Below are positions 37,617 to 55,931 of a stretch of 64,000 bases of DNA, piece after piece. The first letter of the stretch is position 1. Every line of letters begins with the position of its first letter. The translations under genes and the position numbers were made by a program. The notes under the pieces were generated by a model that worked only from the letters and a program-made list of their open reading frames with translations, searched no databases and was not told the DNA's origin. The stretch is from an uncultured Phaeodactylibacter sp. (GTDB taxonomy: Bacteria > Bacteroidota > Bacteroidia > Chitinophagales > Saprospiraceae). The DNA is taken from positions 1 through 64,000 of the forward strand of contig CAJXNH010000020.1 in the NCBI GenBank assembly GCA_913057245.1, read 5' to 3'.

Positions 37617-38700
37617 AAAAACAGCCACAGTCCGGGACTCCGGGCTGTGGCTGTACTATGCAAACAATAGGTTCGTCAGAAAATTTACTGCCGCACCACC
37701 TTTAGTACTTCCCGGTAGCCATCCTGCGTGAAGACTTCCAGGAAGTAAAGCCCTGCGGGCAGATAGCTGGCGTCCCAGTCTATGGACTGCTCTCCTTCGC
37801 GCAGGGGCGTTTGAGCCAGCTGCTGCCCAAACTCATTGAACAGAGCCGCTGTACCATCCGCTGGAAGTGCTGCAGAGAATTGCAGGGTGAAGGTACGGCG
37901 CACGGGGTTGGGCACTATGGTGGCCTTGAGGACCTCGGGCTGCGCGTTTTCCCAGTATAGGCTGTCGGGGGCGGAAAGATTGATACCGCCTGAATTGTTT
38001 CGGAAGCGAATATCCCCAAAGGTCGCAGAAGCGGAGCCGTTCGGGTCAGTGGCAAATACGGCCAGCCCCATTTCCACACACGAGTTCATGGGCAGGTAAG
38101 CCTGATAAAAGGTTTGCCAGGAGCCATTGCTGCTGGAACGGTACCGGGCGCGAATCAAGTCGCCGTCACGTTGCAGGCGCAGCCAATAAGGGAAAGACGC
38201 CTGTATCAGCGTGCTGCTTTTAGGCCCGTTGTCTGTAGTACGGATTTCCCGCCGGATCAAATTGGTGAGGTTAGAATACACCGCTACCATCTTAGCGCCC
38301 GGGGCATCGCTCTCGCGTATCATCAGTCCGGCGTAACCGCCGTCCACGCTTTCGATACGTGCCTGAATACCACCGTCATTGCACAGCTCTATGTTTGCAA
38401 AAGCGAGGTTGTCGGCATTTTGAGTCAGGAGGTTGTAGCTGCCGGTGCTTATGGTCAAGTCACCGTTGTTGGGGCTATCGGCAGAGCAGAGGCTGTAGTT
38501 GAAGTCGCTGCCATCTCCCTGATCCCCAATATTGGTTGCCGACCATCCTGCAGGCAGTGCGTTGCCTTCCTCTACGGAAACAGTAGCGCTGCATTGGTCT
38601 GATGCACCATTGAAATCGGTGATGGTGTAGGTGACATTAATGGTACTGCCAATGTCATCACAGTCGAAGAAGCTCTGGCTGATGGATTCTGAAGCAAGCC
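37546..38700. repeat. segmental duplication copy A (near-identical to 41176-42334)
   Basis: Both copies share the same sequence from 'aaagaaatcgaactggaagtcaccc' through the terminator hairpin and the 3' 1.04 kb of the minus-strand gene. The embedded ORFs 37836..38099/38114..38602 are identical to 41475..41738/41753..42241 in the ORF track. The copies diverge after 'gaagcaagccc' (38700 / 42334). Confidence 0.9.
37614..37656. terminator. bidirectional Rho-independent terminator
   Basis: AAAAAAA-ACAGCCACAGTCCGG-gac-TCCGGGCTGTGGCTGT is a stem of about 15 bp with one mismatch. There is an A-run on the plus side (a T-run for the minus-strand gene ending at 37685). It also lies 1 nt after the stop of the plus gene. 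Confidence 0.7.
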
Positions 38701-40780
38701 CGCACTCCGTGATGCTATTGCCACCAATCTCTTCAGGCAGCAGGGTGCCCTGCCCATTGGGGGCTAGTACCACTGTCACCTCCTGGCAGATAGCGGATGC
38801 AGGCGCACAGCAGAAGTTATTCGGATCTTCAATCACAATCTGTGCCTCGCACTGAGCTGTGAGCTGATTGGAGTCATCCGTTACAATGAGGGTGACAATG
38901 TGGAAGTCTCCGTCTTCACAGGTAAAGGTGAGTTCGGAGTCCGTGCTCAGGGAAAAACTGCCACATTCGGTGTAGGAACCGTCATCAAGCGCTTCTTTTG
39001 ATACCGTGACGAGACCGGATTCCTGCATTTCGACGGTGACGTTCTTACATTTTGCTGTGGGGGGCAGGTCGTCCACTACCGTAAGTTGGAACTGACACCT
39101 ATTCTTGTTGCCGGCTTCATCTTCGATCGTCAGTTCAATAGTGTTTGTACCAAGCATGTAGGAAGGTTGCCCGTCCTCGCCTGTCATAAGGCTGGTTTGC
39201 AAAGCATCTACTCCGCTACAGTTGTCTGACATCAGAATGGTGTCCCAGGGTATACCAGTGTAGGTGCATCCGCCTTCGGAAATGCTCACGATGGTATCCG
39301 CCGGGCATTCGATTAGGGGCGCTTCCGTGTCCCCCTCTACCGTGGTGGTATCGCTGGCGGTACAATCCTGCCCGTTGATGATAGTGACGATGTAATCTCC
39401 CGGTAAGGCCGCGGCGATATACGGGTTTTGCTCATTGCTGCTAAAGCCGCCGGGCCCCATCCAGGACCAGGAGATGGCTTCTCCGCCGTTTTCGGACAAG
39501 TTGACTTCGTCCCCGGCACAGATTGAGCCGTCGCTGTCATTACTCGCTTCTGCAATAGTGGTGCAGGGGATTTCAAATGCTCCGATATCCGGCAGCCCGG
39601 TACGCGCTACTCCGTTCAGGTCAAAAGCAGGGGCGCCTTCTGTACTGCCGGCATTACGGGCCGGAGAGGTAATCCGGGGTGGAGCATAGTAAGAGGTATC
39701 AAACTGCGGGTCCTCATCCATTACGTTCTCACCCGGATAAGTGCCATCGAGTATGCTGTGGCTGATTTTCAGCGTGGGCTGCGGCTGAGAAAAGTCGGTA
39801 AAGGAGAGCTGGTCTGTGATGAGGTTCGAGTTCCCCCATACGATGGTGTTATAAAGTACGATAACAGAATCTTTTGGGTCGCCTGAACCAATACCGAAAT
39901 CGTTGTCAGCCTGTATCATGAAGACCGCCTTGCCGGTGGCATGGTTGTCGTCAATGATGGTGCAGTTGATGAAAGCGGCAGATCCGCTACTGAAGTTAAA
40001 GTTTTCTTCATAAGAGACGAAGAAATTCTCATTCGGTGAAGTATTGTTGACGAACAAGCAGTTGATGAAGCGGGCGTCTCCCCGGGGTACCCAGACTGCG
40101 CCTGCCTGCGAGTCCGCATAGTTATCTCGTATAATGCAATTGGTGAATTCGGCTTCAGCACCGCTCGCCACAATGATGGCGGCACCAATGTTGGCCGCAT
40201 TTTTTTCAATGGTGCAGTTAGAAAAGCGTATATTTTTACTAGAGGACTGGACGGTTACTGCTCCGTTCGCGACTTCTGTGTAGTTGTTGCGAAAGACGAG
40301 CCCGTCTACAGTTATATTTTCCTTTTGGTAGTCGATAAAGAACATAGAGAACGCATTGCCTTCCGTGGTGCCGGACTGGTTGATGTCTCCGTCTATCACG
40401 GTGAGGTGCTCCTTCCAGTTTCGTTGATTGCGCACCGTCTCCTGCCCGCTAAAGCCACCGTACAGCGCGAGGTTAGAGCGCTTGACGATAAACTGGTTTA
40501 TTACATTGTTTGTAATGTCTATTCCCTCGTCCGGGTAGTAATGCCCTGCGGCAAGCCATATTTCGCTGATTTCGGGGGCGTTCTCTGCCAGGTGCAAAGC
40601 ATGTTGCAGATTATTGAATGCCTGATCCCAAGAGTACCCGTTTCCGGAAGAAGGTAAAGAAGGGTTGACATAAAGCACGCTGTCGGTTGGTGGCAGAAGC
40701 GCTCCCTCAATTGGGACTGCTCCCCAACTAAGTCTGGAAAAAGCCAGGAGAAGGCATGCCATGCATATCCATTTTTTCAT
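37685..40780 (-). CDS. large T9SS-secreted surface protein with parallel beta-helix region, HYR domain(s), a conserved ~230-aa pre-CTD module and the T9SS CTD
   Basis: 1031 aa with a signal peptide (MKKWICMACLLLAFSRLSWG) and N-x-x-G/I-x-x-N beta-helix repeats. A HYR-like domain reads PLIECPADTIVSISEGGCTYTGIPWDTILMSDNCSGV.... The C-terminal 345 aa are identical to those of the 2118-aa protein and end in a T9SS CTD (...ATIVPNPVRRTFTLQFS...GLYFLEVFTQDGYREVLKVVRQ). Confidence 0.85.
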   Translation of the reverse strand: MKKWICMACLLLAFSRLSWGAVPIEGALLPPTDSVLYVNPSLPSSGNGYSWDQAFNNLQHALHLAENAPEISEIWLAAGHYYPDEGIDITNNVINQFIVKRSNLALYGGFSGQETVRNQRNWKEHLTVIDGDINQSGTTEGNAFSMFFIDYQKENITVDGLVFRNNYTEVANGAVTVQSSSKNIRFSNCTIEKNAANIGAAIIVASGAEAEFTNCIIRDNYADSQAGAVWVPRGDARFINCLFVNNTSPNENFFVSYEENFNFSSGSAAFINCTIIDDNHATGKAVFMIQADNDFGIGSGDPKDSVIVLYNTIVWGNSNLITDQLSFTDFSQPQPTLKISHSILDGTYPGENVMDEDPQFDTSYYAPPRITSPARNAGSTEGAPAFDLNGVARTGLPDIGAFEIPCTTIAEASNDSDGSICAGDEVNLSENGGEAISWSWMGPGGFSSNEQNPYIAAALPGDYIVTIINGQDCTASDTTTVEGDTEAPLIECPADTIVSISEGGCTYTGIPWDTILMSDNCSGVDALQTSLMTGEDGQPSYMLGTNTIELTIEDEAGNKNRCQFQLTVVDDLPPTAKCKNVTVEMQESGLVTVSKEALDDGSYTECGSFSLSTDSELTFTCEDGDFHIVTLIVTDDSNQLTAQCEAQIVIEDPNNFCCAPASAICQEVTVVLAPNGQGTLLPEEIGGNSITECGLASESISQSFFDCDDIGSTINVTYTITDFNGASDQCSATVSVEEGNALPAGWSATNIGDQGDGSDFNYSLCSADSPNNGDLTISTGSYNLLTQNADNLAFANIELCNDGGIQARIESVDGGYAGLMIRESDAPGAKMVAVYSNLTNLIRREIRTTDNGPKSSTLIQASFPYWLRLQRDGDLIRARYRSSSNGSWQTFYQAYLPMNSCVEMGLAVFATDPNGSASATFGDIRFRNNSGGINLSAPDSLYWENAQPEVLKATIVPNPVRRTFTLQFSAALPADGTAALFNEFGQQLAQTPLREGEQSIDWDASYLPAGLYFLEVFTQDGYREVLKVVRQ

Positions 40781-41175
40781 AAGTACATATTTGTTTTAAA
40801 ATAAGGAGGGCTTGACCCCGGAAAGCACAAAAAAAAGCTATATCTCTCTCTAAAGCTAAATCGTTAACACCTCATAAACTCTCAAATATGCAAGTAGCTG
40901 AATAACAATGCTTAGGGCTGAGCTTTGTTCTCACTTAGGCAGCTGGATTAAAAGGCAATGAGGGGTAAATAAGGGGTGTCAGGTTTGTTGTAAAGCCAAT
41001 TTTGCCAAGTTGTTCCTTGTGGTCAATAGCAGGATATAGCCAGGAGAAAGTCACTAGATCGTTGCTTGGACACTCTTGGTTTTACTCCTTGAGAAGGCAG
41101 CATACCGTCTCTAATCATTTGTCTTTATAGGGTTGGCGATAAATGCGGCGGCGCAGGAGCATACTCTGAGAGGGA

Positions 41176-41256
41176 AATACCAAAAAGAAATCGAACTGGA
41201 AGTCACCCTCTACTTTGATGATCCGGAGAATTTGGAGGTCCGGAAATTAGAATAAA
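41176..41256 (+). pseudogene. duplicated 3' fragment (last 24 codons plus stop) of the 35838..37616 gene, carried along by the segmental duplication
   Basis: Translates KEIELEVTLYFDDPENLEVRKLE*, identical to the C-terminus of the 592-aa protein. Upstream sequence is unrelated and no start codon is present. Confidence 0.7.
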
Positions 41257-42334
41257 AAAACAGCCACAGTCCGGGACTCCGGGCTGTGGCTGTACTATGC
41301 AAACAATAGGTTCGTCAGAAAATTTACTGCCGCACCACCTTTAGTACTTCCCGGTAGCCATCCTGCGTGAAGACTTCCAGGAAGTAAAGCCCTGCGGGCA
41401 GATAGCTGGCGTCCCAGTCTATGGACTGCTCTCCTTCGCGCAGGGGCGTTTGAGCCAGCTGCTGCCCAAACTCATTGAACAGAGCCGCTGTACCATCCGC
41501 TGGAAGTGCTGCAGAGAATTGCAGGGTGAAGGTACGGCGCACGGGGTTGGGCACTATGGTGGCCTTGAGGACCTCGGGCTGCGCGTTTTCCCAGTATAGG
41601 CTGTCGGGGGCGGAAAGATTGATACCGCCTGAATTGTTTCGGAAGCGAATATCCCCAAAGGTCGCAGAAGCGGAGCCGTTCGGGTCAGTGGCAAATACGG
41701 CCAGCCCCATTTCCACACACGAGTTCATGGGCAGGTAAGCCTGATAAAAGGTTTGCCAGGAGCCATTGCTGCTGGAACGGTACCGGGCGCGAATCAAGTC
41801 GCCGTCACGTTGCAGGCGCAGCCAATAAGGGAAAGACGCCTGTATCAGCGTGCTGCTTTTAGGCCCGTTGTCTGTAGTACGGATTTCCCGCCGGATCAAA
41901 TTGGTGAGGTTAGAATACACCGCTACCATCTTAGCGCCCGGGGCATCGCTCTCGCGTATCATCAGTCCGGCGTAACCGCCGTCCACGCTTTCGATACGTG
42001 CCTGAATACCACCGTCATTGCACAGCTCTATGTTTGCAAAAGCGAGGTTGTCGGCATTTTGAGTCAGGAGGTTGTAGCTGCCGGTGCTTATGGTCAAGTC
42101 ACCGTTGTTGGGGCTATCGGCAGAGCAGAGGCTGTAGTTGAAGTCGCTGCCATCTCCCTGATCCCCAATATTGGTTGCCGACCATCCTGCAGGCAGTGCG
42201 TTGCCTTCCTCTACGGAAACAGTAGCGCTGCATTGGTCTGATGCACCATTGAAATCGGTGATGGTGTAGGTGACATTAATGGTACTGCCAATGTCATCAC
42301 AGTCGAAGAAGCTCTGGCTGATGGATTCTGAAGC
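41176..42334. repeat. segmental duplication copy B (near-identical to 37546-38700), including a second copy of the terminator hairpin at ~41253-41296
   Basis: See copy A. By eye it is identical at DNA level over about 1.15 kb. Confidence 0.9.
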
Positions 42335-45300
42335 AAGCCCGTCTGCGCAGAAGGTGGTGCTTTCTGAAGACGCAAAAGCGCCACCGGAGGCCAGAGTGTT
42401 ACCCAGTTCATCGCTCAGGCTGTAGGAGCCACTGCCGTAAGCACAGCAGATACCATCACCGGCAGAATCAAAGATGGTAAAGGTATAATCGCCACCCGAG
42501 AGGCTGAACGTTTCCGTAACGGTAGAGCCATTGCGCTGTGAACCATAGGAGCCGCCCGAAGCTACGGTAGTACCACCATCAGTCACGGTCCAGGTGGTTT
42601 CACTGGGATAGTTGTCGAGTACGATAGTCAGGATGAAGTTGTTGCCGTTACTGCAGGGGGCGCACCCCATGATGCAGGGGGCGCACCCCATGATGCTATT
42701 GCCACCAATCTCCTCAGGCAGTAGGGTGCCCTGCCCATTGGTGTCTAGTACAACTGTCACATCCTGGCAGATAGCAGATGGCGGTGCACAGTATTCGCTT
42801 ACTCTAAAATCATCGAGCAGAATACCACGTCCGCGTTGTGGCGTTTCATTACTTGTCGTGTCCAATACCAGGTCCAAGCTGTCCTGATCGTTGGCGTCGG
42901 TTACGGTAAAAGCAAACTGAAGGTAATCAGATAAGCTTGGCAGCAGAATCTCTTCGGTTGTCCACGTGGACGCCAAATTCTGGTTAGGAGAATATTCCGC
43001 AAGTTGTGTCCACTCTCCACCTTCTGCTGTTCTGTACAACAAGTTTAGCGTTGGCTGATAATTCATAATACTGTCCAAAAAAGTTGGGTCAAAATTAAGG
43101 CTCCACTTGAAAAGCGAGCCTTCAAACCCAGGGTCAAGATCTTTAACTGATAAGGTCCACTCTCCGTTAAGAGGGCAGCCTTCTAGGCTGGAGAAGTCTC
43201 CTTCGGGCTTATAACTGCCCTCAGGGAAGTAAGAAGCAGAAACTTCAGAGGTCAGGCCGTCAATTAAGCTGGGAACAGTAGTGTAAACGTGAGACGGGGT
43301 AAAGCTCAAGTGTTCATCCCTGAGCGTGCCAAAATCGGTACTCTCCATGCTGAAGCAGTACTCATAAGGGGTGCCAGGCGTCAGGTCGTTACGACCTATA
43401 AAATCCGTTCGAATAAATGGCTCGCCTAAATGTTCCAAGATATGGGGAGAAGAAAAGTGTTTAATTATTTTAGCAGATTGCCCATTAGGGCAGGATAGCT
43501 CAATATCCAGGTTGTCATAACGTTCGTGCTCCAGGCTAATGCAAACACTGGAAAGCATGGACTCAGTGAGTGTGGCATCCCTCGGGAAGCCACTGAGCTT
43601 AATGGTAGAAGGGCTCGTAAGTGGAAAAAAAGGTATGATTCCATCCACCCGGCCAATCGCTAAGTTCTCGTTAGCTACAGCTGTTTGTGGCGATGGACCT
43701 ACCGACGATATAAGGCCTTCTAAAATGTTATAGGCAAAAGAAACCACAGGAACCTCAGAAAACGAACTGACATCAAATAATGGCGAAATAAGTGTGTCTT
43801 TCCTGACTGTTGGACTGATAAATGCCGCCATGTTATCACCATTAAGGGGTTGGTTAGCCAATCCGGTAGTATCGAATACCTTTTCGGGGAACTGCCAGGC
43901 TGAGGGGCTGCTGGATTGAAGTGTCCAACATTCTGGTTTGACTCCAGAACCTTCGAAACCTGTAAAATATGGACTCCTAAGTGTAAGTGTCCAAGGAGAA
44001 CCACATGAATAGGTTAGTCTAACAGTGGAGGACGGGCGAGAGAGGTGCCCATCGCAAATGGCGATAACCTCAAACCTGTAATTGCCGTCTCGGTCGAAAA
44101 AAAATAACTCGGCGTTAAATTGATTAGTAGAAATAAAGCTATACCAGTGAGGCGATCCCTCCAGAGCATACCGGACGAGAAAAGAGTCCGCATCTGATGA
44201 ATCCCAGCTTAGGACAGCAACATCGACGTCGGTTGACCATGGAAAAAGACTAGCTTGAACATTCTGAGGTGGTAAACAATCCTCTTCTTCTTGAATATGA
44301 ATATTGTCAATCCTGGCAAAAGCATTGTGATACCCTTCAAATCGGACCACGTAACTTTCGGCGTTGGTGTTAAGTTTTGGCAGCGGTATTCTTGCTGTAG
44401 CCCAGCCATTTGTGGGGGTTTTAAAATCCACCAGGACTTTTTCACTCAAAGGCGACGATGAACCAAACGATTGATAGGCCACCCTAAAAGCAGGAGCAGG
44501 CTTGAAAGCGATACTGCTGGTACAGAAGCTGGTACTTTCGCTGAAGTCGAAGCTGCCGCCCGATGCGATCACTGCTCCGGTGCCATCTGTAAGGGTATAG
44601 GAACCATTGCCAGCTAAACAGCAAATACCGTCCCCGTAGCTGTCATTAATAGTGAAGGTATAGTCTCCTGGCTCCAGGCTGATGTTCTCTGTAATAGTGC
44701 CTGCTGTGTACAAGCTGAAATTCCTATCGTAGGGGCCACCGGAAGCTACTATAGCACCGTCAGCATCAGAGACCGTCCACGAAGTTTCATCAGGAAAGGT
44801 GTCGACATCGATGGTTAGGGTCAGGTTGAGTCCGTAACAAGAGGAGCAGGGTGCACAGCTGGACCCACCGCAGTCTATGCCACTCTCATCACCGTTTTGG
44901 ATGCCATCATAGCAGGATGGCGAAACGGTCGTGCTGCAGGTGGTGGGTGCTTCCTCAATCCAGTAATCAAAAGTTAACAGGTGGTTTTCCGCTTCGTTCC
45001 AAAGGATAGATGGTGATTCTAAACGGGCTGTGTGCTGTGTGTCCGAAAAGCAATCATAATTCCCGGTGAAAGTTGCTCTGCGCCCCCCTGTAACCTCTTC
45101 AAATAATAACGGGAATCCATCTTGTATCCAGCATCCTTCAGGAGCTGAAGCATTTTCAAAGCCCTGGAATACAGGAAAAGGTGAGTATTCACCACATAAA
45201 GTTCTAAATTCTAAGGGCTCTGAAGGATTGCTGAAGATATCGGCGGATCCACAAGACTCAGTGATGACGTAAAAATCGTAAGGGGTATCTGATTCTAATC

Positions 45301-47680: not shown

Positions 47681-48242
47681 GGAGATTAAGTTTGTTAAGG
47701 AAAAATATGGTAGTAGGAGCTTAAGTGTTGTTTCGGATATTGCGTTTTGAGCTGCTATCGTCAGAAAAAATCAGTCATACCTTGGTCAACTTGCGCAGGT
47801 CTGCGGCTTCTGAATGGGGTCCTGTGAACTCCATGGATATGCCTGATGAACCACCTTTGAGGAGAATAATCAGAGGAGTGGGGAAAACGTATGAAGCCTT
47901 TTACGGGCTGATTACTAACGAGGCGAAGGATCTTGTGCCCCGCACGGATTAAATACCGGGACAATAAGAAGAATATACAAGACATGAGTGATGAGGCAAC
48001 TAAAAGGACCTCATCCCAAGAGCTGTTTTTGGAAGGCATGCCTATCTGTTTTTGTTGTTACATCTACCCACATCTTCTGAAGAGAAAGAAGGTGGAGATG
48101 CATGCCTGTAAAACTATTAACGGGATGTTTGAAAGCCTGCTATTTAAAGCTTCCTGTTACTCTAAAATCGTAAAAACTACTCTCATTTGGTAAAAACGAC
48201 AGGAAGGTTTGTTTGTAAAAGGCTGGTATTCAATGAGGTGTT

Positions 48243-49922
48243 TTATTCTTCTTCGTTTCGGATCATCTGAGTATATTGCTTCGGGGTAAGCCCGGTCTGA
48301 TCCTTGAAGGCTCGGTAAAAAGTGGCGGTAGAATTAAATCCGGATAATCTTCCAATTTCATCGAAGGAAAAAGAGTGGTTCTTCTGCAATTCAATCTTGG
48401 CACGTTCTACTCTAAACCGGTTGAGGAATGCAGAGAAGTTCATCTGAGTGTAGTAGCTAATGGTTTTGGATATGTAGGTACGGTTGGAGTTGCAAATTTT
48501 AGCCAGGTCACTGATGCGGAAATCGGGTTGAAGGTAGCATTCCTCTTTTTCAATAATGCTTACGATTTGCCTCCACAGCTCATAATGGTGGGTAAATGGT
48601 ATGGTGTTTTCATCTTCCTCGATGGGCGTTGATATGTCAGGTTGGTTCCACTCTGCTGTTGGTGATTGGACATGATAACCTGACTTGGGCTTTAGCAGAG
48701 CTTCGAACTGACGCTGGGTTTCTTTTTCTTTAAGAAATAGCACCCTATAGCTTACTTGTAGCCTCCTGTGATTTTTTATCAGCATAACGACTGCTACTCC
48801 GAGGATAAAAATGAAAGCAAGGGAAAGCGTCAGTATGTTTCGCTGTGAACGCAGCCTGACCTGTTGGTTATTAATGATTTGGGCATTCTCTTTTGTTTCG
48901 TGGATGATTTGCAGCTCACTGACAATTCGGCTGGTGTTTTCATCGTATATGGAATCAAGGAAGTGTTCGTACTCCCAAAGTTCTTTCTCAAAAGTAGCAG
49001 CATCTTCGAGCTCTGCCATCGCAATCAAATGATAAATCCATTTTCCCTGCTGGGTTCGGTTATTAGAGGGAGAGAGCGTATCGAGCCTTGCTCTTGCAGC
49101 CTCAAACTCACCTCTTGCAATCTCTAACTTGGCTTTAAAAACCTGAAGCCCTTCATTCAGATAGTAATACCCTTTTTCTTCAATCAGGCGGGTCGCTTTT
49201 TCCAGGTAGTATTTTGACTTCTCCTCCTCTCCGGCTTCATGATGAAAAGCCGCCAGATGTATGCATACATTGGTATACTCGTAAGTGTTGCCCGCTTGCT
49301 CATAAAGTTGTAGGGACCGCGTAAGCTTTGTTTCAGCCTTATAATCTTTAAGTTCCTCGTCAATAGTAGCTTCATTGTGCAAAACTAATGCCAGCCCTTC
49401 TGTGTTCCCGGCATCTTCAAATTTGCTCCTTGCTGATTCAAGGTAGGATCTGGCTTCGCTGAATTTGCGCTGATGAATAAGAAGCAAACCAATGTTTAAT
49501 TCAGATTGGGCTATGCCATTTTGATTGCCGATGCTTTTTTCCAGTTCTAAAGAAGCAAGATAGGCCGCTAAGCCTTCTTCATAACGGTCTGTCATGTCAT
49601 AGACGATCCCCAGGTTATTGAGTAACTTCCCTTTGAATAAAGGTGACTGCTCCGCATAACCAGATTCCAGCGCTTTCAGGTATGCATTTCCGCTTAGATA
49701 GTAGTTGCCGTTAAAGTAATGAGCGATGCCCATGTAGTAATGCGCCTGAGCCAGAATGGAATCTTCTGCCGCCGGGGCTTCCTCCACTATTGTGCTCAGT
49801 ATCTGTAGCGCAGAGTCAGGTTGCCCTGGCAGCAACGCCTTTACAGAATCAAGTCCGTTCTGTGCCGTAACGGATGAGGCATATAATAATGATGCTAACA
49901 GAAATGTTAGTAATCGATTCAT
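48243..49922 (-). CDS. TPR-repeat, single-TM, AraC-type HTH transcriptional regulator (one-component)
   Basis: 559 aa with a signal peptide and periplasmic TPR-like repeats. The TM helix reads ILTLSLAFIFILGVAVVMLI. The C-terminal AraC/XylS HTH reads ...ISDLAKICNSNRTYISKTI...ERAKIELQKNHSFSFDEIGRLSGFNSTATFYRAFKDQTGLTPKQY. Confidence 0.8.
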   Translation of the reverse strand: MNRLLTFLLASLLYASSVTAQNGLDSVKALLPGQPDSALQILSTIVEEAPAAEDSILAQAHYYMGIAHYFNGNYYLSGNAYLKALESGYAEQSPLFKGKLLNNLGIVYDMTDRYEEGLAAYLASLELEKSIGNQNGIAQSELNIGLLLIHQRKFSEARSYLESARSKFEDAGNTEGLALVLHNEATIDEELKDYKAETKLTRSLQLYEQAGNTYEYTNVCIHLAAFHHEAGEEEKSKYYLEKATRLIEEKGYYYLNEGLQVFKAKLEIARGEFEAARARLDTLSPSNNRTQQGKWIYHLIAMAELEDAATFEKELWEYEHFLDSIYDENTSRIVSELQIIHETKENAQIINNQQVRLRSQRNILTLSLAFIFILGVAVVMLIKNHRRLQVSYRVLFLKEKETQRQFEALLKPKSGYHVQSPTAEWNQPDISTPIEEDENTIPFTHHYELWRQIVSIIEKEECYLQPDFRISDLAKICNSNRTYISKTISYYTQMNFSAFLNRFRVERAKIELQKNHSFSFDEIGRLSGFNSTATFYRAFKDQTGLTPKQYTQMIRNEEE

Positions 49923-50470
49923 TTGTACTATCCCCCGATACGGGGGTGAAATAAATTTGAGAAGGTAAATAGAGGTGCTATGTTAGCATCTCTAATGAAA
50001 ATACTTTTATTTGCTGAGCCCTCAGCTTTGCTTTTACTTCAACGAGTGCGCAATATAGTAAAGAATTGCCTCACCCGCTGTTTGAAGGGGTGCCGGGCTA
50101 CATTTAATGATTGATTTTTGACTTTTTCTTTTTGAACACTACGGCGTTAAAATGCTCACCCTAGTGGCTCAAGTCATAGATCTCTGATACTTAAGTTGAA
50201 GTTATTTTTCGGCTAATCAAGGCGAAGGTTCGCGACTTTAGCCCGAGCTAAAGGAACGGATCTGGCGCTGGCTTAGGCTATACCGGTGCTTTTTGCCTTG
50301 CAGGGCACAAAAATAAAGTCCTCAAAATTTCACCTCTCGTGATCGAGGGGAGTATGGTTTGAAAATACAGGAAATACAATAAAGCCAAGAGCATGATAAG
50401 CTATCGAAAAATATGTAAAGGCATGCATATTTTCAGAAAACGGCAGGTTCTCATCAAGGAAGCGTTAGGA

Positions 50471-50512
50471 GCAAAAAATCCCGAATACCAGCCTTGGCCA
50501 GCATTCGGGATT
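50471..50512 (-). terminator. Rho-independent terminator downstream of the M43 protease gene
   Basis: AATCCCGAAT (50477-50486) pairs with ATTCGGGATT (50503-50512). It is followed on the minus strand by a T-run (plus-strand gcaaaaaa at 50471-50478). Confidence 0.6.
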
Positions 50513-50552
50513 GATGAAGAATTTTTGTTAAAGGCTTATTAGCCTGTTTAGT

Positions 50553-53411
50553 TTACCGCACTACCACAAAGCGGCGGACGATATGCTCCTGATTAGCGCT
50601 CAGGTGCAGGAAGTAAACGCCGGGGGCGAGTGTGGACGCGTCCATCTCATGTACGGAGGTGCCCACTTGTCCCAGCCATTGCTGCTGACTGATCACCCGT
50701 CCGTCTGTGCCGGTCACCATCACTTGTACCGGGCCTGCTTCAGGCAGGGTGAAGGAAAGCTTGAGGTCGCCGTTGGTCGGGTTCGGGAAGAGGTTGATGT
50801 CAGCAATTTGCGGTGCAGCTTGTGCCTGTGGGCCACGGAAGGTGCTTTGCTCAACCGATGGTTTCACATAGTCAGCGGTAAGTACAGGATTAGCCGTACG
50901 GGCACCGCTTTGGCAACCGCTGATCACGATGTCATCCAGGTATACCCAATCGGAATTACCGGAGGCGTCACAACGGAAACGCAGGCGGGTGTTAGTGGTG
51001 AACGGACCCGGGATAACCACAGCATCGAAGTAGCGCTGATTGTTTTGGAATTCATCGCCCTGATTCCACTCTTCGACGGTGGTGTAGGTGCTGCCGCCAT
51101 TGGTAGATATCTGTAGCCAGAAGTCTTCGTTAGCGTTGTCCATACTGACCGGGAAGTAGCTGAAATCGACTGTGAGTTCGCTGTAAGCGGTCAGATCCAG
51201 GTTATCTGTGGTGAGCACGGAGGTACTGGAGTTGTCCCTCAGTGCCAGGCTAACAAACCCGGTATTGGGGTTGCTGTTGCTGCGGTAGCAATCGCTGCCG
51301 CCATCATTCCAGATACCAAAACCTGACTCAAAGCCTTCGCTGTTGAGCGTGAGGTAGGTGCAACCGCCACCGCCTCCGCATGGTGCACAGCTGGAACCGC
51401 CGCAGTCCACGCCAGTCTCATCACCGTTCTGGATGCCATCATTGCAGGTTGGGGCCGTACCGCCATCGCCTGCGCAGAAGTTGGTGCTTTCTGAAGACGC
51501 AAATGCACCACCGGATGCCAGGGTGTTGCCCAGTTCATCGCTCAGGCTGTAAGAACCAGTGCCATAAGCACAGCAAATACCATCCCCAAAGGAATCGAAA
51601 ATAGTGAATACATAGTCACCACCCGAGAGGCTAAAGGTTTCAGTAACGTTAGAGCCATTGGGCTGTGTGCCGTAAGGGCCACCCGAAGCTACGGTAGTGC
51701 CGCCATCGGTTACGGTCCATGTGGTCTCACCGGGATAGTTGTCGAGTACGATGGTCAGAGTAAAGTTATTGCCATTGCTGCAGGAGGTATTACAAGGCGC
51801 GCAGTCCGGGCCACCGCAATCCACGCCAGTTTCACTGCCGTTTTGAATACCATCGTTGCAAGTCGGGCAGGCGGCACAGTCCGGGCCACCGCAATCCACA
51901 CCGGTTTCGCTACCGTTCTGAATGCCGTCATTACAGGTTGGGCAAGCCGGGCAGTTGGTGCCGCCGCAGTCTACGCCGGTCTCGTCACCGTTCTGGATGC
52001 CATCGTTACAAGTTGGAGCAGCGCCGACCGTACAGAAGCTGGCGCTTTCGCTGGAGCCGAAGCTGCCGCCCGATGCAATCACCGCACCGGTACCATCGGT
52101 AAGGCTATAGGAACCATTGCCATACGCACAGCAAATGCCGTCCCCGAAGCTGTCATTAATGGTAAAGGTATAGTCTCCTGTACCCAGGCTGATGTTCTCG
52201 GTAACGGCAGAGCCGTTGGCTTGACCGCCGTAGGTGCCACCTGAAGCTACCGTAGCACCACCGGCATCGGTGACGGTCCAGGAAGTTTCCGCAGGATAGT
52301 TATCGAGCGTGATGGTCAGGGTCAGGTTGGGGTCATTACAGGGACAGGGAGCGCAGCTGGAACCGCCGCAGTCCACGCCGGTCTCGTCACCGTTTTGGAT
52401 GCCATCATTGCAGGTAGGCGTTACGGGGGTGCCGCAGGCGGTAGAGTTCAGCAGGCTGGCACGGGCGCCACCGGGCTCAAACAAAGCCCGCATACGGGCA
52501 GTCTGGCCTTGCGTGAAGAGGTTCATACAGCCATCATCGGAGTAGTCCATGTAGTTTTGGAACATGTCAGGAAGATCACCGGTACCTCCATTACAGGAGT
52601 CGCTACCGGGGAAATTACAAGGTGAACCCGTGTAGTTTGGCCCGCCAGCCCGTGGCGTATCACTGACGAAGTCGTCGGCGTTGCAGTTGCCATCCCCCCA
52701 GATGTGGCGAAGATTGAGGTAGTGCCCCACCTCGTGCGTACCGGTCCGGCCCTTATCGAAAGGAGCGGTAGCGGTGCCAATATCCCCAAAGTATTGGTAA
52801 TCAACAACCACTCCATCGGTACTGGCAGGGCCACCGGGGAACTGTGCGTAACCCAGAATGCCGCCGCTGATATCACAAACCCAAAAGTTCATGTAGTCAC
52901 TTGCCGGCCAGGCGTCTTTCCCACCACTGGAGTTAAACTTCACCTCATCATTAGTGCCGAAAGCAGTGACACTGGTTGGGGTGCGCGTAATGCCATCGGT
53001 TGGGTTTCCCTGCGGGTCAACGGTAGCCAGGCAAAACTCAATTTCTACATCGGCTGCGACGCCCTGAAATACAGAAGGCGTGTTGACCGCATCCGCATTC
53101 AGGCGGCGGAAGTCTTCATTCAGAATATCAATCTGGCTTTGCACCTGAGCCGCACTGATATTCTCCGTGGCGTTATTGTACACCACATGCACCACCACGG
53201 GGATGGTAATGGTGCCTGTCACCGAGCGTGAAGCACTTTCCAGGACGCGGGCAGTGTGCCTCTCGATTTCTTTTTGCCGTTGTTCGCGTTCCGGGTGCAT
53301 TTCATGCTGATGCTCCAGGTAGTCCATGCTACCACAATTGCGCTGCGCCCATAGGTTACCCGTCAGGCCTAACAGCAAGAGTATCAAAAGGGTGTTCAAG
53401 TTTTTTTTCAT
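50553..53411 (-). CDS. T9SS-secreted M43-family (pappalysin/ulilysin-like metzincin) zinc metalloprotease with Cys-rich tandem motifs and beta-sandwich modules
   Basis: 952 aa with a signal peptide plus propeptide. The catalytic motif [11 protein letters not shown] has the spacing of the M43 HEXXHXXGXXH motif (ulilysin HEVGHWLGLYH). It carries five tandem Cys-rich motifs TCNDGIQNG(D/S)[11 protein letters not shown] and two DNYP.ET.WT...GDGICCAYG modules (about 95% identical to those in the 2118-aa protein). A C-terminal beta-sandwich and T9SS CTD read ...[16 protein letters not shown]...[22 protein letters not shown]. Confidence 0.85.
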
Positions 53412-53890
53412 ACTATTGCAAGTGTTTTGGTAATGAGAACAAGGAATCGGTCACAACGATGTTGTGTAATTTTTTACCGGGGTGAGTGCTGTCTAGCCTG
53501 AAATAAATATTATGATGGGGTGGATAAGCTAATGAATTATTTGGTTATGATTTTGAATCTTTTGAAAAATATTTTGAATTAAATCCTGTTAGTAGGTAGG
53601 ATTTTGGTGTGGTTGTAACGCGGATTGGACTGATAATGTGGATGTAAACGGCTTACGAGAAGGCCTTTGCAGCGGGCAGGAGGGATATCAGGATATACTT
53701 TTCGGCACAGCAGGATGGAGAGGTGGGCATAAACAGCGACCGCATGGTAATCAAGGGGCTTCCAATCCAAACCGTTTCACCTCCCGCTGAATAGTAGCGC
53801 TGCGTCTAAAGCTAAAGGGGCAAATGCCAGCCGTCACAGCTCTGCAGCATAGCAAAGCCGTGACGGTCGGACAAATCCAGGCTCTCTTAT

Positions 53891-53940
53891 TAGATTTTAT
53901 TAACTGATCTTTCGCATGCGAAAGATCAGTTAATAAAATC
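53891..53940. repeat. perfect 50-bp palindrome (inverted repeat with no spacer)
   Basis: AGATTTTATTAACTGATCTTTCGCA|TGCGAAAGATCAGTTAATAAAATCT equals its own reverse complement over all 50 nt. It abuts or overlaps the stop codon of the minus-strand gene ending at ~53939. Confidence 0.9.
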
Positions 53941-55931
53941 TATTTTACTTTCATGACCCGGAGCAAGAGCGGCGCTTTGCCCGGTTGCCGTATTTCAAGC
54001 AGGTAGAGCCCACCGGGCAGGTTACCGACGGCCCATTGTGTGATGGTATCTCCGGGCATGAGCTGTCTTTGGGCAACGGGCTGTCCCAGCGGGTTGCGCA
54101 GGACAGCAGTAGCTGTATTGCCTCCGTCATTGTGGTATTTCAGGCTGAAAGCATCCTGTGCCGGATTAGGGAAAATGCTTGCCCGTATCCCATCGTGCTC
54201 GCTGGCTTCAGTCCCGGCATGAACAGCCAACAGGTTATTGGCGCCGATATTGGACCTTGTTGCGACCTGGGCGAAGGTAGCCTCTGCCTGGCCGTTGGGG
54301 TCAGTAGTAAAGACCGCCAGCCCCATTTCCACACACGCTTTCATGGGGATGTAAGCCTGGTGCAAAAGCACCCAGCTGCCTGCATCTGAATTCCAGTAAA
54401 AGGCCCGGATGTAGTCGCCCTTCCGGCGCAGTCGCAGCCAGAAGGGGAAGCTGGCATAAAGGCTGCCGCTGCTGCGTGGGCCGTTTTCAACAGTACGGGT
54501 CTCCCGGCGCAGGAGGTTGGTGAGATTGGAGTAAATCGCGATCATTTTTGCGCCCGGCGCATTGTTCTCCCGGATCATAAGGCCCGCGTAGCCACCTGTT
54601 ACACTTTCAATGCGTGCCTGTATACCGCCATCGTTGCACAGTTCCTGGCTAATGAAGCCCAGGTTGTCAGCGTTGGCAGGGATAAGGTTATAGCCGCCGG
54701 TCATAATAGTGAAATCTCCACCATTGGGATTATCGGTGGCACAAGGGTCATAGCTGTAGTCGCTGCCGCTGCCCTGGCTCCCGATATCTGTTGGCTGCCA
54801 GTTGCCGGGGAGGCTGCCCCCTGAGGCGACGGTAATATTAGCTGTGCACTCTGAGGTGTTGTTGTTAGCATCAGTTACCACCACTGGTACAGGGAAGGTA
54901 AGCCCTACTTCGTCGCAGGTGAAGGTAGCGGGGGAGAATTCTGCACTTGCGATGCTGCAGTTATCCGTGCTTTGTGCGCTGTCGAAGACATCTTCCAGCT
55001 GCAACTGGTATTGCCCTTCTGAGCCGATATCCACCGATGAGTCCAGGCAAAGTGCAACCGGGGCAGTGTCGTCCTGTACAGTCACATTAAAGGTACATTC
55101 ATCCTGATTGCCATTGTCATCACTGATGGTATAGGCAACGGTATGCCCGCCAACTGCCAGCGTAGTGCTGAAGAGGGCGCTTTCCGTTACTTCCTGTGGC
55201 GTGCCGTCATCAATGGCAATAGTCAGGGTAATGGGTGAACAGGCCCCGTTGGCTTCGGCCGGGTTATTCCAGGATACTTCCGCCGCGCATTGGCCATTGC
55301 CGCTATCGCTTGTGTTTTTGGTGATTGGGCCGGGGCATGAAATGGCCGGCTCTGGCAGTACGCCCAGCTCAAAGGTAGCACTATTGGTACAGGGGCCTGG
55401 AGTGGTATAGGTTATAGTATAGTTCCCTGGCTGTGAGGCAGCAATATCAATTTCACCGGTTGCAGGATTGATGCTCAGCCCAACTGGAGATACGGAGAAG
55501 GTACCGCCGCTGATGCCGGTGATTTCCGGGGTGGGGCTGTCGGCGTTGGCGCAGTAGGCTGCTTGCCCGTAGCTGAAGGCAGAATCATCTAAGGCATTGA
55601 TAGTGACAGAGACATTCGAAGGTCGCAGTTGTAATTTGTCCCCGCAACGTGAAAATTTAAAGTATTGAATAACAGTGTTTAACAAATTGTGTTCATGTTT
55701 ATGTTTTTGAAAAAGCACACTTTTTTGAAAGATTAATCAGTTAGAATTCTAAGTGTAGAAACCTAAAAAATATAAAGATCAAGTAATCAATAGATTAAGT
55801 ATGTATTTTCATTCTAATTAGGGGGCAAATTACAACTGCGCCCTTGCTGAGCTATCCTGACTGAAAGCTCCTAATGAAGAAATTAATGTTAGCGCTGCAA
55901 ATAGCAGCTGTCGAAACCACCAATATTTCAT
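53939..55931 (-). pseudogene. T9SS cargo gene (HYR domains, conserved pre-CTD module, CTD) interrupted after its signal peptide by a ~217-bp TIR-flanked insertion
   Basis: The body ORF (track 53940..55718, 592 aa, GTG start, no signal peptide) is preceded by the insertion. Upstream of the insertion a short minus-strand ORF from ATG 55931 encodes MKYWWFRQLLFAALTLISSLGAFSQDSSARAQL*, a textbook signal peptide whose stop lies inside the right TIR. Conceptual removal of 55624-55840 joins ...SQDSSARA to RPSNVSVTINALDD... in frame. The body carries HYR-like repeats and a module about 65% identical to the pre-CTD module of the 1031/2118-aa proteins, plus a T9SS CTD. Confidence 0.6.
55624..55840. mobile_element. 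MITE-like insertion: ~217-bp AT-rich element bounded by ~20-bp terminal inverted repeats
   Basis: CGCAGTTGTAATTTGTCCCC at 55624-55643 versus GGGGGCAAATTACAACTGCG at 55821-55840. These are reverse complements apart from a 1-nt indel. The interior is AT-rich and has no ORF. The element splits the signal peptide from the body of a T9SS gene. Confidence 0.5.

What the first reader, a model, noticed from the sequence alone, without database searches (positions are those of the whole stretch)
37685..55931. Candidate undescribed locus: cluster of giant modular T9SS cargo proteins sharing exchangeable modules, with its own TPR/AraC regulator
Four consecutive minus-strand genes encode T9SS cargo (1031 aa, 2118 aa, 952 aa, and a disrupted ~660 aa gene). 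They are assembled from a common parts list:
- MAM and FN3 domains, a parallel beta-helix, and HYR domains;
- an M43 metzincin domain;
- tandem Cys-rich DG..NGDE.G.DCGG motifs;
- a ~100-aa DNYPxETxWT...GDGICCxYG module, present twice in each of two proteins at about 95% identity;
- a conserved ~230-aa module (GW..T.IG.QG.GSD..Y..C...ELCNDGGIQARIESV.GGYAGLMIRE..APGAKM.A.YSNLTNL.RRE.RT...GP.SS....ASFP.WLRL.R.GD.IRA.Y..S..GSW...QAYLPM..CVEMGLAVF.TDPNG) that always sits directly before the T9SS CTD.

The locus contains a TPR/TM/AraC-HTH regulator (48243..49922) and shows several rearrangement signatures: the segmental duplication, a 21-bp in-frame duplication, a MITE-like insertion and a 50-bp palindrome. 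Together this suggests a diversifying adhesin/protease locus in which C-terminal surface-attachment or recognition cassettes are shuffled between cargo proteins. The function of the conserved pre-CTD module is unknown.
Basis: partly seen in the sequence, partly recalled or inferred. Interest (0 to 1): 0.75.

Follow-up and report, generated by a model that had tools for sequence, protein, structure and literature searches.

The report
Strain-variable island of T9SS surface-protein genes
This is a real but fairly ordinary cluster of secreted surface-protein genes in a marine Phaeodactylibacter, built from widely used protein modules and reshuffled between close relatives by ordinary recombination and mobile elements, not by a new dedicated system.

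Summary
The sequence features are mostly real. Four minus-strand genes carry type-A T9SS C-terminal domains: A 1031 aa, B 2118 aa, C 952 aa (M43 protease), and D, which is split by a MITE. A TPR/TM/AraC gene (R) lies among them.

Confirmed rearrangement marks:
- a 1164-bp duplication at 99.9% identity
- a 21-bp in-frame duplication
- a 223-bp MITE
- a 52-bp perfect palindrome

Corrections:
- The GDGICC modules are 52-86% identical, not about 95%.
- The "pre-CTD" module is about 190 aa and sits in A, B and D but not C.
- It is a divergent DUF1349 (ConA-like beta-sandwich). About 10,000 representative proteins match it, usually about 100 aa from the C-terminus.
- The GDGICC module and the 25-aa Cys-rich repeat have no Pfam or PDB relative, but the GDGICC module is widespread in marine Bacteroidota cargo and also found in a diatom protein.

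Comparative data show a variable island between lptE/ABC-F and an aminotransferase gene:
- P. xiamenensis KD52 has R-B but no A.
- Another MAG has C but no D, R or B.
- A more distant MAG has no island.
- Inside a B gene that is otherwise about 99% identical, one GDGICC cassette is only about 66% identical.

No recombinase, RT or invertase is present. Verdict: a recombination-prone T9SS cargo island, a new member of a known kind.

The parts
37685..40780 (-). Gene A, 1031 aa T9SS cargo: signal peptide, probable right-handed beta-helix with choice-of-anchor-Q, HYR/Ig-like repeats, DUF1349-like module, type-A CTD
   Evidence: No orthologue at this position in KD52.
37985..38560 (-). DUF1349-like (ConA-like) 'pre-CTD' module of A (aa 741-932). 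The identical copy in B is at 41624-42199.
   Evidence: Pfam DUF1349 19.9 bits, below the 32.4 cut-off. AF2 pLDDT 85. Foldseek TM 0.73 to 3o12 and 0.68 to 3mep. Profile search finds 10,096 representatives.
37539..38702 (.). Segmental duplication, copy 1: last 78 nt of the convergent gene unk592, a 68-nt intergenic hairpin, and the 3' 1018 nt of gene A
   Evidence: 99.9% identical to 41178-42341.
41178..42341 (.). Segmental duplication, copy 2: a 78-nt relic of the unk592 3' end, the intergenic hairpin, and the 3' 1018 nt of gene B
   Evidence: The near-identical metagenome contig L001 ends inside this repeat.
41324..47680 (-). Gene B, 2118 aa T9SS cargo: MAM, NosD-like beta-helix, fn3, Cys-rich repeat, GDGICC-1, P-domain, HYR-like domain with nested GDGICC-2, DUF1349-like module, CTD
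   Evidence: 97-99% identical to the KD52 orthologue except in the cassette regions.
44519..44833 (-). GDGICC module 1 of B (aa 950-1054)
   Evidence: Identity to KD52 drops to 92-96% over 43933-44826, which spans most of this module plus about 590 bp further along the gene.
42342..42683 (-). 342-nt (114-aa) insertion relative to gene A: GDGICC module 2 nested in the last HYR-like Ig domain of B. It is 84% nt identical to module 2 of C. It includes the 21-bp tandem duplication at about 42655-42696.
   Evidence: Only about 66% identical to the KD52 allele while the flanks are 94-99.7%.
48243..49922 (-). Gene R, 559 aa: signal peptide, TPR region, one TM helix, AraC-type HTH. A predicted membrane-anchored one-component regulator located upstream of B.
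   Evidence: Pfam HTH_18 55.7 bits and TPR_12 40 bits. TM segment read from the sequence. 99.5% identical in KD52, next to B.
50553..53411 (-). Gene C, 952 aa T9SS cargo: M43 metzincin ([11 protein letters not shown]), 5 Cys-rich repeats, 2 GDGICC modules (52023-52331 and 51459-51767), MAM/Reelin-like domain, CTD. No DUF1349-like module.
   Evidence: The orthologue in MAG bin.35 has 977 aa with one extra Cys-rich repeat.
51799..52023 (-). Three tandem 75-nt units encoding the 25-aa Cys-rich repeat [10 protein letters not shown](D/S)[14 protein letters not shown]
   Evidence: No Pfam or PDB sequence match.
53891..53942 (.). 52-bp perfect palindrome that overlaps the stop codon of D
   Evidence: No other copy in the window or in the held loci other than L001, the near-identical copy of this locus. 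Flagged only as terminator-like.
53940..55718 (-). Gene D body: Ig-like/HYR domains, DUF1349-like module (54243-54818, 65% identical to A), CTD. It lacks its signal peptide.
55621..55843 (.). 223-bp MITE with 23-nt terminal inverted repeats that interrupts D
   Evidence: The same TIRs bound a 1.45-kb element encoding an ISKra4-like transposase in marine metagenome contigs L065 and L072.
55830..55931 (-). Orphaned 5' end of D (MKYWWFRQLLFAALTLISSLGAFSQDSSA...), the signal peptide

Best explanation
WHAT IT IS. The region is a strain-variable chromosomal island in a Phaeodactylibacter closely related to P. xiamenensis. It lies between lptE/ABC-F and an aminotransferase gene.

GENE CONTENT. It holds independently transcribed genes for Sec- and T9SS-exported multidomain proteins:
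- C, an M43 metalloprotease.
- A and B, two large proteins built from beta-helix, MAM and HYR domains.
- D, an HYR protein inactivated by a MITE.
- R, a membrane-anchored TPR/AraC regulator that probably controls the downstream gene B.

MODULES. The proteins are assembled from widely used extracellular modules.
- The module before the CTD in A, B and D is a divergent DUF1349 ConA-like beta-sandwich. In this lineage it is fused to the CTD as a standard C-terminal tail. It is most likely a glycan-binding or surface-retention domain.
- The GDGICC module is an uncurated 8-stranded beta-sandwich with invariant acidic residues and a Cys-Cys pair. It is probably a Ca2+-stabilised binding module.
- The 25-aa Cys-rich repeats are probably disulfide-bonded spacers.

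HOW VARIATION ARISES. Variation comes from general homologous and illegitimate recombination among paralogous modules, and from IS/MITE activity. The recombination events are segmental duplication or unequal crossover, replacement of a cassette by gene conversion, and slippage in tandem repeats. There is no dedicated shuffling machinery.

SHOWN VERSUS INFERRED. Shown: the domain content, the rearrangements and the differences between genomes. Inferred: ligand binding, the target of R, and the surface location of the proteins.
For: DOMAINS
- Domain assignments.
- Pre-CTD module: AF2 model pLDDT 85. The best PDB matches are the DUF1349 structures 3o12 and 3mep, TM 0.73 and 0.68.
- Its profile finds 10,096 representative proteins. 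Most single-copy hits end about 100 aa before the C-terminus.
- Multi-copy relatives pass the Pfam DUF1349 cut-off at the same residues.
- In the held loci, 80 of 87 modules are followed by a CTD within 400 nt.
- 678 homologues were found in T9SS cargo of many Bacteroidota.

VARIABILITY
- KD52 has R-B at 97-99% identity but no A, and different genes upstream of R.
- MAG bin.35 has ABC-F-LptE-C followed by a different regulator and a different cargo gene.
- In GSL.Bin30, ABC-F directly abuts the aminotransferase gene.
- The GDGICC-2 cassette of B is about 66% identical to KD52 inside flanks that are 94-99.7% identical.
- The 21-bp duplication is absent in KD52.
- The Cys-repeat count differs: 3 tandem copies here and 4 in bin.35.
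- The duplication carries a 78-nt relic of the neighbouring gene.
- The MITE's TIRs match an ISKra4-like IS.
- There is no recombinase, RT or transposase ORF in the window.
Against: - No expression, localisation or binding data exist.
- R's link to B rests on adjacency in only two near-identical genomes.
- The donor of the replaced GDGICC cassette was not found among the held sequences.
- Only 64 kb of this genome was inspected, so a trans-acting diversification system elsewhere cannot be excluded.
- The DUF1349 assignment is below the Pfam cut-off for these copies: 16-20 bits against 32.4.
- T9SS machinery genes were not seen in the window.
Confidence: 0.75

Rival explanations
1. This is a dedicated, programmed diversification locus. 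C-terminal or internal cassettes would be actively shuffled between cargo genes to vary surface specificity, in the manner of pilE/pilS-type or shufflon-type systems. The TPR/AraC gene would be the locus's own regulator.
For: - Cassette-like replacement of GDGICC-2 within an otherwise about 99% identical gene.
- An identical 1164-bp tail on two different genes.
- Regulators lie next to large cargo genes in the equivalent islands of other genomes.
Against: - No recombinase, invertase or RT in the window.
- No conserved inverted or direct repeats at the module borders beyond the coding homology itself.
- No silent cassette array.
- The events seen are few and mixed in kind: a duplication, slippage, and a MITE.
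- The same modules occur genome-wide and phylum-wide.
- R is absent where C occurs in bin.35.
Confidence: 0.07
2. The 99.9% identical A/B tail is an assembly or polishing artefact, for example a collapsed or copied repeat. Gene A as written would then not exist.
For: - Exact protein A is not on record in the public gene index.
- KD52 has no A.
- The L001 contig carries 5 differences from both window copies within its last 311 bp.
Against: - The window is contiguous across both copies, with unique sequence on all four sides.
- Gene A has a coherent ORF with a signal peptide. It also has a 110-bp stretch at 89% identity to B upstream of the repeat, which indicates true older paralogy.
- An independent short-read contig of the same strain breaks inside the repeat. 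That is expected if two copies exist.
Confidence: 0.06
3. This is a conserved, stable adhesin/protease operon made only of well-characterised domains. In that case there would be nothing variable or unknown.
For: Most domains have Pfam families. R-B is conserved at 97-99% in KD52.
Against: - Gene content differs in every related genome examined.
- GDGICC and the Cys-rich repeat have no Pfam, NCBIfam or PDB match.
- DUF1349 has no known function.
- The genes have separate intergenic regions, and C has its own terminator-like hairpin.
Confidence: 0.03

Closest known systems
Type-A CTD cargo of the Bacteroidota type IX secretion system (for example P. gingivalis gingipains, F. johnsoniae SprB/RemA/ChiA)
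   Same: N-terminal signal peptide, long multidomain body with Ig-like, HYR and fn3 modules, and a C-terminal TIGR04183/PF18962 sorting domain.
   Different: - The penultimate domain here is a DUF1349-like ConA-type sandwich, not the Ig-like domain of gingipains.
- Secretion, CTD cleavage and anchoring were not tested.
- The T9SS machinery was not seen in the window.
Pappalysin-family (M43B) metzincins such as ulilysin and the T9SS-secreted mirolysin of Tannerella forsythia
   Same: Gene C has Peptidase_M43 (62.9 bits), the HExxHxxxxxH zinc motif, and a T9SS CTD.
   Different: C carries five Cys-rich repeats, two GDGICC modules and a MAM-like domain between the catalytic domain and the CTD. 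The Gly of the HExxHxxGxxH motif is Asn.
Pfam DUF1349 (PF07081), Concanavalin-like clan; structures 3O12 (yeast) and 3MEP (Erwinia ECA2234)
   Same: - Same fold: TM 0.73 and 0.68.
- Weak direct Pfam hits.
- The profile of this module hits proteins whose same residues pass the DUF1349 cut-off.
   Different: - The window copies score below the curated cut-off.
- This subfamily is extracellular, is fused directly to a T9SS CTD, and is expanded in Phaeodactylibacter, Lewinellaceae and Saprospiraceae.
- The family has no known function.
ISKra4-family insertion sequences and their MITE derivatives
   Same: The 223-bp insert has 23-nt TIRs that match (22-23 of 23) those of a 1.45-kb element encoding a 448-aa ISKra4-like transposase. 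It has no coding capacity.
   Different: - Only one copy was seen in the held sequences of this genome.
- No clear target-site duplication was seen.
- The transposase scores below the NCBIfam cut-off (107 against 205 bits).
Gene-conversion-driven variation of surface-protein genes (Neisseria pilE/pilS, Borrelia vlsE) and unequal crossover among paralogous adhesin genes
   Same: Replacement of an internal cassette within an otherwise near-identical gene, and homogenised tails on paralogues.
   Different: There is no silent cassette array, no dedicated sequence signals and no evidence of high frequency. The pattern is consistent with sporadic RecA-type recombination.
Bacteroidota membrane-anchored or hybrid regulators with AraC-type output (for example HTCS regulators next to their target loci)
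   Same: R has an extracytoplasmic sensor-like TPR region, a TM helix and a cytoplasmic AraC HTH. It lies directly upstream of a large secreted-protein gene. The bin.35 island has an HTCS with AraC output in the equivalent place.
   Different: R has no kinase or receiver domains, and its target and signal are unknown. Its only paralogue in the 63 related loci held is 27% identical.

Membership tests
T9SS type-A CTD cargo | C-terminal sorting domain that matches TIGR04183/PF18962 at the curated cut-off | tested here: met
   NCBIfam 27.7, 27.6, 43.9 and 24.9 bits for A, B, C and D against a cut-off of 23. By Pfam, only C and D exceed the cut-off of 27.
T9SS type-A CTD cargo | N-terminal Sec signal peptide | tested here: met
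   Hydrophobic N-termini of A, B and C were read from the sequence. D's is separated from the gene body by the MITE. No predictor was run.
T9SS type-A CTD cargo | T9SS machinery in the genome, and secretion that depends on it | not testable with these tools
   No por/gld/spr genes lie in the 64-kb window. This is only inferred from the Bacteroidota (Phaeodactylibacter) origin.
Peptidase M43 (pappalysin/cytophagalysin) | Pfam PF05572 above cut-off, and the zinc-binding HExxHxxxxxH motif | tested here: met
   62.9 bits against a cut-off of 23. [11 protein letters not shown] is in the sequence. The Met-turn was not examined.
DUF1349 (PF07081) | Score at or above the Pfam gathering cut-off (32.4 bits) | tested here: not met
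   16.3-19.9 bits.
DUF1349 (PF07081) | ConA-like fold of the solved members, and a transitive profile link to cut-off-passing members | tested here: met
   TM 0.73 to 3o12 and 0.68 to 3mep. P0023, P0054 and P0134 are hit by the module profile and pass DUF1349 at 88-134 bits over the same residues.
MITE (non-autonomous IS derivative) | Small size, terminal inverted repeats shared with an autonomous IS, and no transposase | tested here: met
   223 bp, 23-nt TIRs. The same TIRs flank an ISKra4-like transposase gene in L065 and L072.
MITE (non-autonomous IS derivative) | Multiple copies in the genome, and a target-site duplication | tested here: inconclusive
   Apart from L001 (the near-identical copy of this locus), there is no second copy in the window or in the 63 related loci held. 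No obvious direct repeat was seen. The ORF is restored by removing 222 or 225 nt, not 223. The rest of the genome is not available.
AraC/XylS-family transcription regulator | C-terminal double-HTH (HTH_18/HTH_AraC) above cut-off | tested here: met
   HTH_18 55.7 bits against 33.6, and HTH_AraC 35.7 bits against 26.6.
Programmed DNA-diversification systems (shufflon, invertase switch, DGR, silent-cassette conversion) | A nearby recombinase or RT, and conserved recombination sites or a silent cassette array | tested here: not met
   Pfam scans of the ORFs of 180 aa or more found none. Overlapping shadow ORFs and one 200-aa ORF at 63342-63944 gave nothing or were skipped. The repeat search shows only coding-homology repeats.

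The most novel reading that the evidence does not exclude
The GDGICC module may be an undescribed family of Ca2+-dependent glycan- or cell-wall-binding beta-sandwich domains. It would be shared by diatoms and by diatom-associated and other marine Bacteroidota. In Phaeodactylibacter it would be swapped as a cassette by gene conversion, even nested inside an Ig-like domain, to retarget T9SS proteases and adhesins. The DUF1349-like+CTD tail would act as a lineage-specific surface-retention unit.
Probability: 0.18. Interest if true: 0.55.

Novelty: new member of a known kind. Interest (0 to 1): 0.3.

Why it matters
Saprospirales and Phaeodactylibacter are abundant particle- and alga-associated bacteria with very large T9SS secretomes. 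This locus gives a clean, small-scale record of how such secretomes evolve:
- tail duplication
- cassette replacement inside a gene that is otherwise about 99% identical
- tandem-repeat slippage
- knockout of a gene by a MITE

It also points to two widespread extracellular modules that have no curated family, GDGICC and the [10 protein letters not shown]...DCGG repeat. It further shows a divergent DUF1349 subfamily that is systematically fused to the T9SS CTD. These would be reasonable targets for domain curation and binding studies. None of this changes current understanding of T9SS or of genome plasticity.

Tried and rejected
- Pfam at E<=10 on the isolated GDGICC and Cys-repeat sequences gave nothing. 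NCBIfam run on the whole proteins gave no hit over those regions.
- PDB sequence searches for both modules gave nothing meaningful.
- Foldseek against AFDB50 was unavailable.
- A literature search for 'GDGICC' returned 0 papers.
- A search for 'DUF1349' returned only incidental mentions.
- A search for Phaeodactylibacter plus T9SS returned 2 papers, both judged unrelated from their titles and abstracts.
- The first word-indexed search for the pre-CTD module found only 10 proteins and suggested rarity. The exhaustive profile search overturned that with about 10,000 hits.
- An exact look-up of protein A found no record.
- I looked for the donor of the replaced GDGICC-2 cassette among all held loci. 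The closest were C2 of the window at 84% and bin.35 C2 at 85.5%. The donor remains unidentified.
- I looked for other copies of the palindrome and of the MITE in the window and the held loci. Only L001, the near-identical copy of this locus, has them.
- I considered Notch/LNR-like or disintegrin-like ancestry for the Cys-rich repeat, because PAPP-A, another M43B protease, carries LNRs. No sequence support was found, so the idea stays a recollection and not a result.
- I considered the sigma-70 promoter and terminator scans uninformative. The counts were close to those of shuffled sequence.
Full report
**1. What is in the sequence**

The region 37.5-56 kb carries five minus-strand ORFs:

| Gene | Coordinates | Length |
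|---|---|---|
| A | 37685-40780 | 1031 aa |
| B | 41324-47680 | 2118 aa |
| R | 48243-49922 | 559 aa |
| C | 50553-53411 | 952 aa |
| D | 53940-55718 | 592 aa |

Pfam and NCBIfam give these assignments:
- **A:** HYR and a choice-of-anchor-Q domain.
- **B:** MAM, fn3, a proprotein-convertase P-domain and a weak NosD-like beta-helix.
- **C:** Peptidase_M43, with [11 protein letters not shown] in the sequence, and a MAM/Reelin-like domain.
- **D:** HYR.
- **R:** TPR repeats plus HTH_18/AraC, with a signal peptide and one hydrophobic helix.
- **A, B, C, D:** all four reach the NCBIfam cut-off for the type-A T9SS sorting domain.

The flanks are housekeeping genes. On one side are LptE, an ABC-F ATPase and a Na/Ca exchanger. 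On the other are a 592-aa ORF with no family ('unk592'), an aminotransferase and an S9 peptidase.

No recombinase, integrase, invertase, reverse transcriptase or transposase ORF was found anywhere in the 64 kb.

**2. The repeats and rearrangement marks**

*Segmental duplication.*
- A 1164-bp segment (37539-38702) is repeated at 41178-42341 with one mismatch. A and B therefore share 338 identical C-terminal residues.
- The segment runs past the stop codon. It includes a 68-nt intergenic hairpin and the last 78 nt of the convergent gene unk592. A relic of unk592's last 25 codons therefore sits downstream of B.
- This shows a true DNA-level segmental duplication and not only shared protein ancestry.
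- Immediately upstream, A 38701-38810 matches B 42682-42791 at 89%. B carries 342 extra nucleotides between the two matching blocks.

*The extra 342 nt in B.*
- It encodes GDGICC module 2. In B this module is nested inside the last HYR-like Ig domain, which A has uninterrupted.
- It is 84% nt and 86% aa identical to module 2 of gene C.
- It contains a 21-bp tandem duplication (IMGCAPC twice).

*Other marks.*
- The four GDGICC modules are 52-86% identical in protein, not about 95%.
- Gene C has five 25-aa Cys-rich repeats, three of them as 75-nt tandem units.
- A 52-bp perfect palindrome overlaps D's stop codon.
- D is split. A signal-peptide ORF starting at 55931 is separated from the body of the gene by a 223-bp element with 23-nt terminal inverted repeats.
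- Removing 222 or 225 nt restores a single ORF that carries the signal peptide.

**3. What the modules are**

*The pre-CTD module.*
- It is about 190 aa and occurs in A, B and D but not C.
- It gives sub-threshold Pfam hits to DUF1349 and DUF1583.
- An AlphaFold model built from a 7-sequence alignment is confident: pLDDT 85, pTM 0.85, all-beta.
- Its best PDB matches are two solved proteins of unknown function, 3o12 and 3mep (which I recall as DUF1349 members), with TM 0.73 and 0.68. ConA-like glucanases and lectins follow.
- The word-indexed search found only 10 relatives. The exhaustive profile search found 10,096 representative proteins at E<=1e-3, of which 716 have E<=1e-30.
- Most single-copy hits end about 100 residues before the C-terminus. 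Others hold 4-11 tandem copies.
- Multi-copy relatives pass the DUF1349 gathering cut-off over the same residues.
- The module is therefore a divergent, extracellular DUF1349 subfamily and not a new domain. DUF1349 itself has no described function.
- A scan of GTDB species genomes found it in 63 loci, all from Phaeodactylibacter, Lewinellaceae, Saprospiraceae or Chitinophagales-labelled MAGs. There are many copies per genome, at least 6 in P. xiamenensis KD52 and about 17 in one MAG.
- In all held sequence, 80 of 87 copies are followed by a recognisable CTD within 400 nt, with a median gap of 67 nt.
- 'DUF1349-like + CTD' is therefore a standard C-terminal tail of cargo proteins in this lineage.

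*The GDGICC module.*
- It is about 103 aa, with the motifs DNYPxETxW and DSxGDGICCxYGxGSY.
- It has no Pfam, NCBIfam or PDB sequence match.
- Its model is very confident (pLDDT 92.6) and is an 8-stranded beta-sandwich.
- A profile search found 678 proteins. Many are T9SS cargo from Tenacibaculum, Aquimarina, Winogradskyella, Ekhidna and others, often next to MAM or fn3. One is an M4 peptidase from a Pseudomonadales MAG.
- One cluster also includes a 4128-aa protein of the diatom Detonula confervacea.
- The invariant acidic residues and the structural neighbours suggest a Ca2+-stabilised binding module. That is inference.

*The Cys-rich repeat.* It has no detectable relative in Pfam or PDB.

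**4. Comparison with relatives**

- **Near-identical strain.** A metagenome contig, L001, is 99.96% identical over 17.9 kb. It has the same MITE and palindrome and ends inside the A/B repeat. That is what a short-read assembler does at a true repeat.
- **P. xiamenensis KD52** (L002 and L004, same contig):
  - It has R and B at 97-99% nucleotide identity.
  - B is followed directly by an unk592-like gene. There is no gene A.
  - Upstream of R lie a TPR histidine kinase, a LytTR response regulator and a different 2435-aa beta-helix/HYR/DUF1349-like/CTD gene, in place of C and D.
  - A DDE transposase sits next to the unk592-like gene.
- **MAG bin.35** (L022 and L008, one contig): the order is ABC-F, LptE, C (97% aa in the M43 part), a hybrid two-component regulator with AraC output, a different 2196-aa cargo gene, unk592, aminotransferase. 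There is no D, R or B.
- **GSL.Bin30** (L049): in this more distant MAG the ABC-F and aminotransferase genes are adjacent, so the island is absent.

The locus is therefore a variable island at a conserved chromosomal position.

At finer scale, a sliding comparison of B between the window and KD52 shows:
- 98-100% identity almost everywhere;
- about 66% over 42439-42732, which is GDGICC-2;
- 92-96% over 43933-44826, which spans most of GDGICC-1 and the sequence just after it.

The KD52 allele of GDGICC-2 lacks both the 21-bp duplication and the 21 nt that encode ICCAYGS. A 27-34% divergent cassette inside flanks about 1% divergent can only be explained by recombinational replacement. The donor was not among the held sequences.

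The bin.35 orthologue of C has four tandem Cys-rich repeats where the window has three.

**5. The mobile element**

- The TIR sequence of the 223-bp insert occurs in 8 marine metagenome contigs, mostly at contig ends.
- In two of them, L065 and L072, a pair of these TIRs bounds a 1.45-kb element. It encodes a 448-454-aa protein that matches the ISKra4 transposase model at E 9e-31, below the curated cut-off.
- Only the TIRs are shared with the insert. The insert is therefore a MITE related to an ISKra4-like IS.
- D, deprived of its signal peptide, is most likely a pseudogene.

**6. Mechanism and rivals**

*Best reading (about 0.75).* This is a recombination-prone island of independently transcribed T9SS cargo genes. 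The genes are built from generic extracellular modules. Variation arises by segmental duplication or unequal crossover, gene conversion among paralogous modules, slippage in tandem repeats, and IS/MITE activity.

The window arrangement (B-S-X-S-unk592, where S is the 1164-bp repeat and X the sequence between its two copies) and the KD52 arrangement (B-S-unk592) interconvert by a single homologous crossover between the two S copies. Which of the two is ancestral cannot be decided.

*Role of R.* R is plausibly the local regulator of B. It has the same orientation, lies 562 bp upstream, and is conserved together with B in KD52. There is an analogous regulator-cargo pair in bin.35. This is inference only. 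R is not a regulator 'of the locus', since C occurs without it.

*Rivals.*
- A programmed cassette-shuffling system is unlikely (about 0.07). There is no machinery, no silent array and no conserved site.
- An assembly artefact for the A/B repeat is unlikely (about 0.06) but not excluded. L001 differs at 5 positions from both window copies within the repeat, which I cannot explain.
- A stable, fully characterised operon is contradicted by the comparative data.

**7. Novelty**

Each element belongs to a known kind: type-A T9SS cargo, an M43 protease, a DUF1349-like domain, an AraC regulator and an ISKra4-type MITE. Variable islands of surface-protein genes are also well known.

The modestly new points are:
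- the systematic DUF1349-like+CTD tail in this lineage;
- two widespread uncurated modules (GDGICC and the Cys-rich repeat);
- a clear example of an internal domain cassette nested in an Ig-like domain and replaced between near-identical alleles.

I rate this as a new member of a known kind, with interest 0.3.

Noticed in passing
window 35838-37616 (+); relic at 41178-41255; L005 10944-12713, 12921-14681, 19213-20475; L002 10944-12053: The 592-aa ORF 'unk592' has no Pfam or NCBIfam family. It is convergent with the cargo genes. It has three paralogues in tandem in MAG G1-WW12-15 and is shortened next to a DDE transposase in KD52. Its last 25 codons are duplicated downstream of gene B.
   Followed up: partly
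P0192 / P0289 (protein cluster): The GDGICC module occurs in a 4128-aa predicted protein of the diatom Detonula confervacea (MMETSP/EukProt). Phaeodactylibacter was, to my recollection, first isolated from a diatom culture. This could mean a shared or transferred domain, or bacterial contamination of the transcriptome.
   Followed up: no
L001 17582-17892 vs window 42031-42341 and 38392-38702: The near-identical metagenome contig has 5 substitutions in its last 311 bp. There both window copies and KD52 agree with each other. Elsewhere it has only 2 differences in 17.6 kb. This could be strain variation in the repeat, a chimeric contig end, or homogenisation of the two copies in the window assembly.
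   Followed up: partly
window 53891-53942: A 52-bp perfect, AT-rich palindrome starts exactly at D's TAG stop codon. The only other copy in the held sequences is in L001, the near-identical strain. Its function (terminator, protein-binding site or element scar) is unknown.
   Followed up: partly
L065 201-1655; L072 1-1454: A 1.45-kb insertion sequence in marine metagenome contigs has GGGCGCAGTTGTAATTTGTCCCC terminal inverted repeats and a 448-454-aa ISKra4-like transposase. The transposase has no Pfam hit and scores below the NCBIfam cut-off. Several contigs end at the TIR, which suggests a multi-copy element.
   Followed up: partly
L002 9560-9870 (KD52 gene B): The KD52 allele of GDGICC module 2 lacks the hallmark ICCAYGS segment and is strongly divergent. 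It may be a decaying or alternative form of the domain.
   Followed up: partly
L008 43-4050; L004 7986-10626: The equivalent islands in other genomes carry different regulators next to large cargo genes. bin.35 has a hybrid two-component system with AraC output. KD52 has a LytTR response regulator plus a TPR histidine kinase.
   Followed up: partly
window 28585-29382 (+), 4302-6863 (-), 29514-31358 (+): There are further secreted-type genes outside the flagged region. One is a 265-aa protein with a T9SS CTD and no other family. Two are PKD-domain proteins. Cargo genes are therefore scattered through the window and not confined to the island.
   Followed up: no
window 972-2900 (+), 7933-9138 (-), 59987-61960 (+), 63342-63944 (-): Four ORFs of 200-657 aa have no Pfam match. 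The one at 59987-61960 is conserved at 79-91% nt in related genomes (L022, L007).
   Followed up: no
P0006: One database homologue of the pre-CTD module, from a Logan assembly, has a strikingly I/L/V/F/C/W-enriched sequence that still aligns along its whole length. It is possibly a low-quality or compositionally skewed assembly.
   Followed up: no
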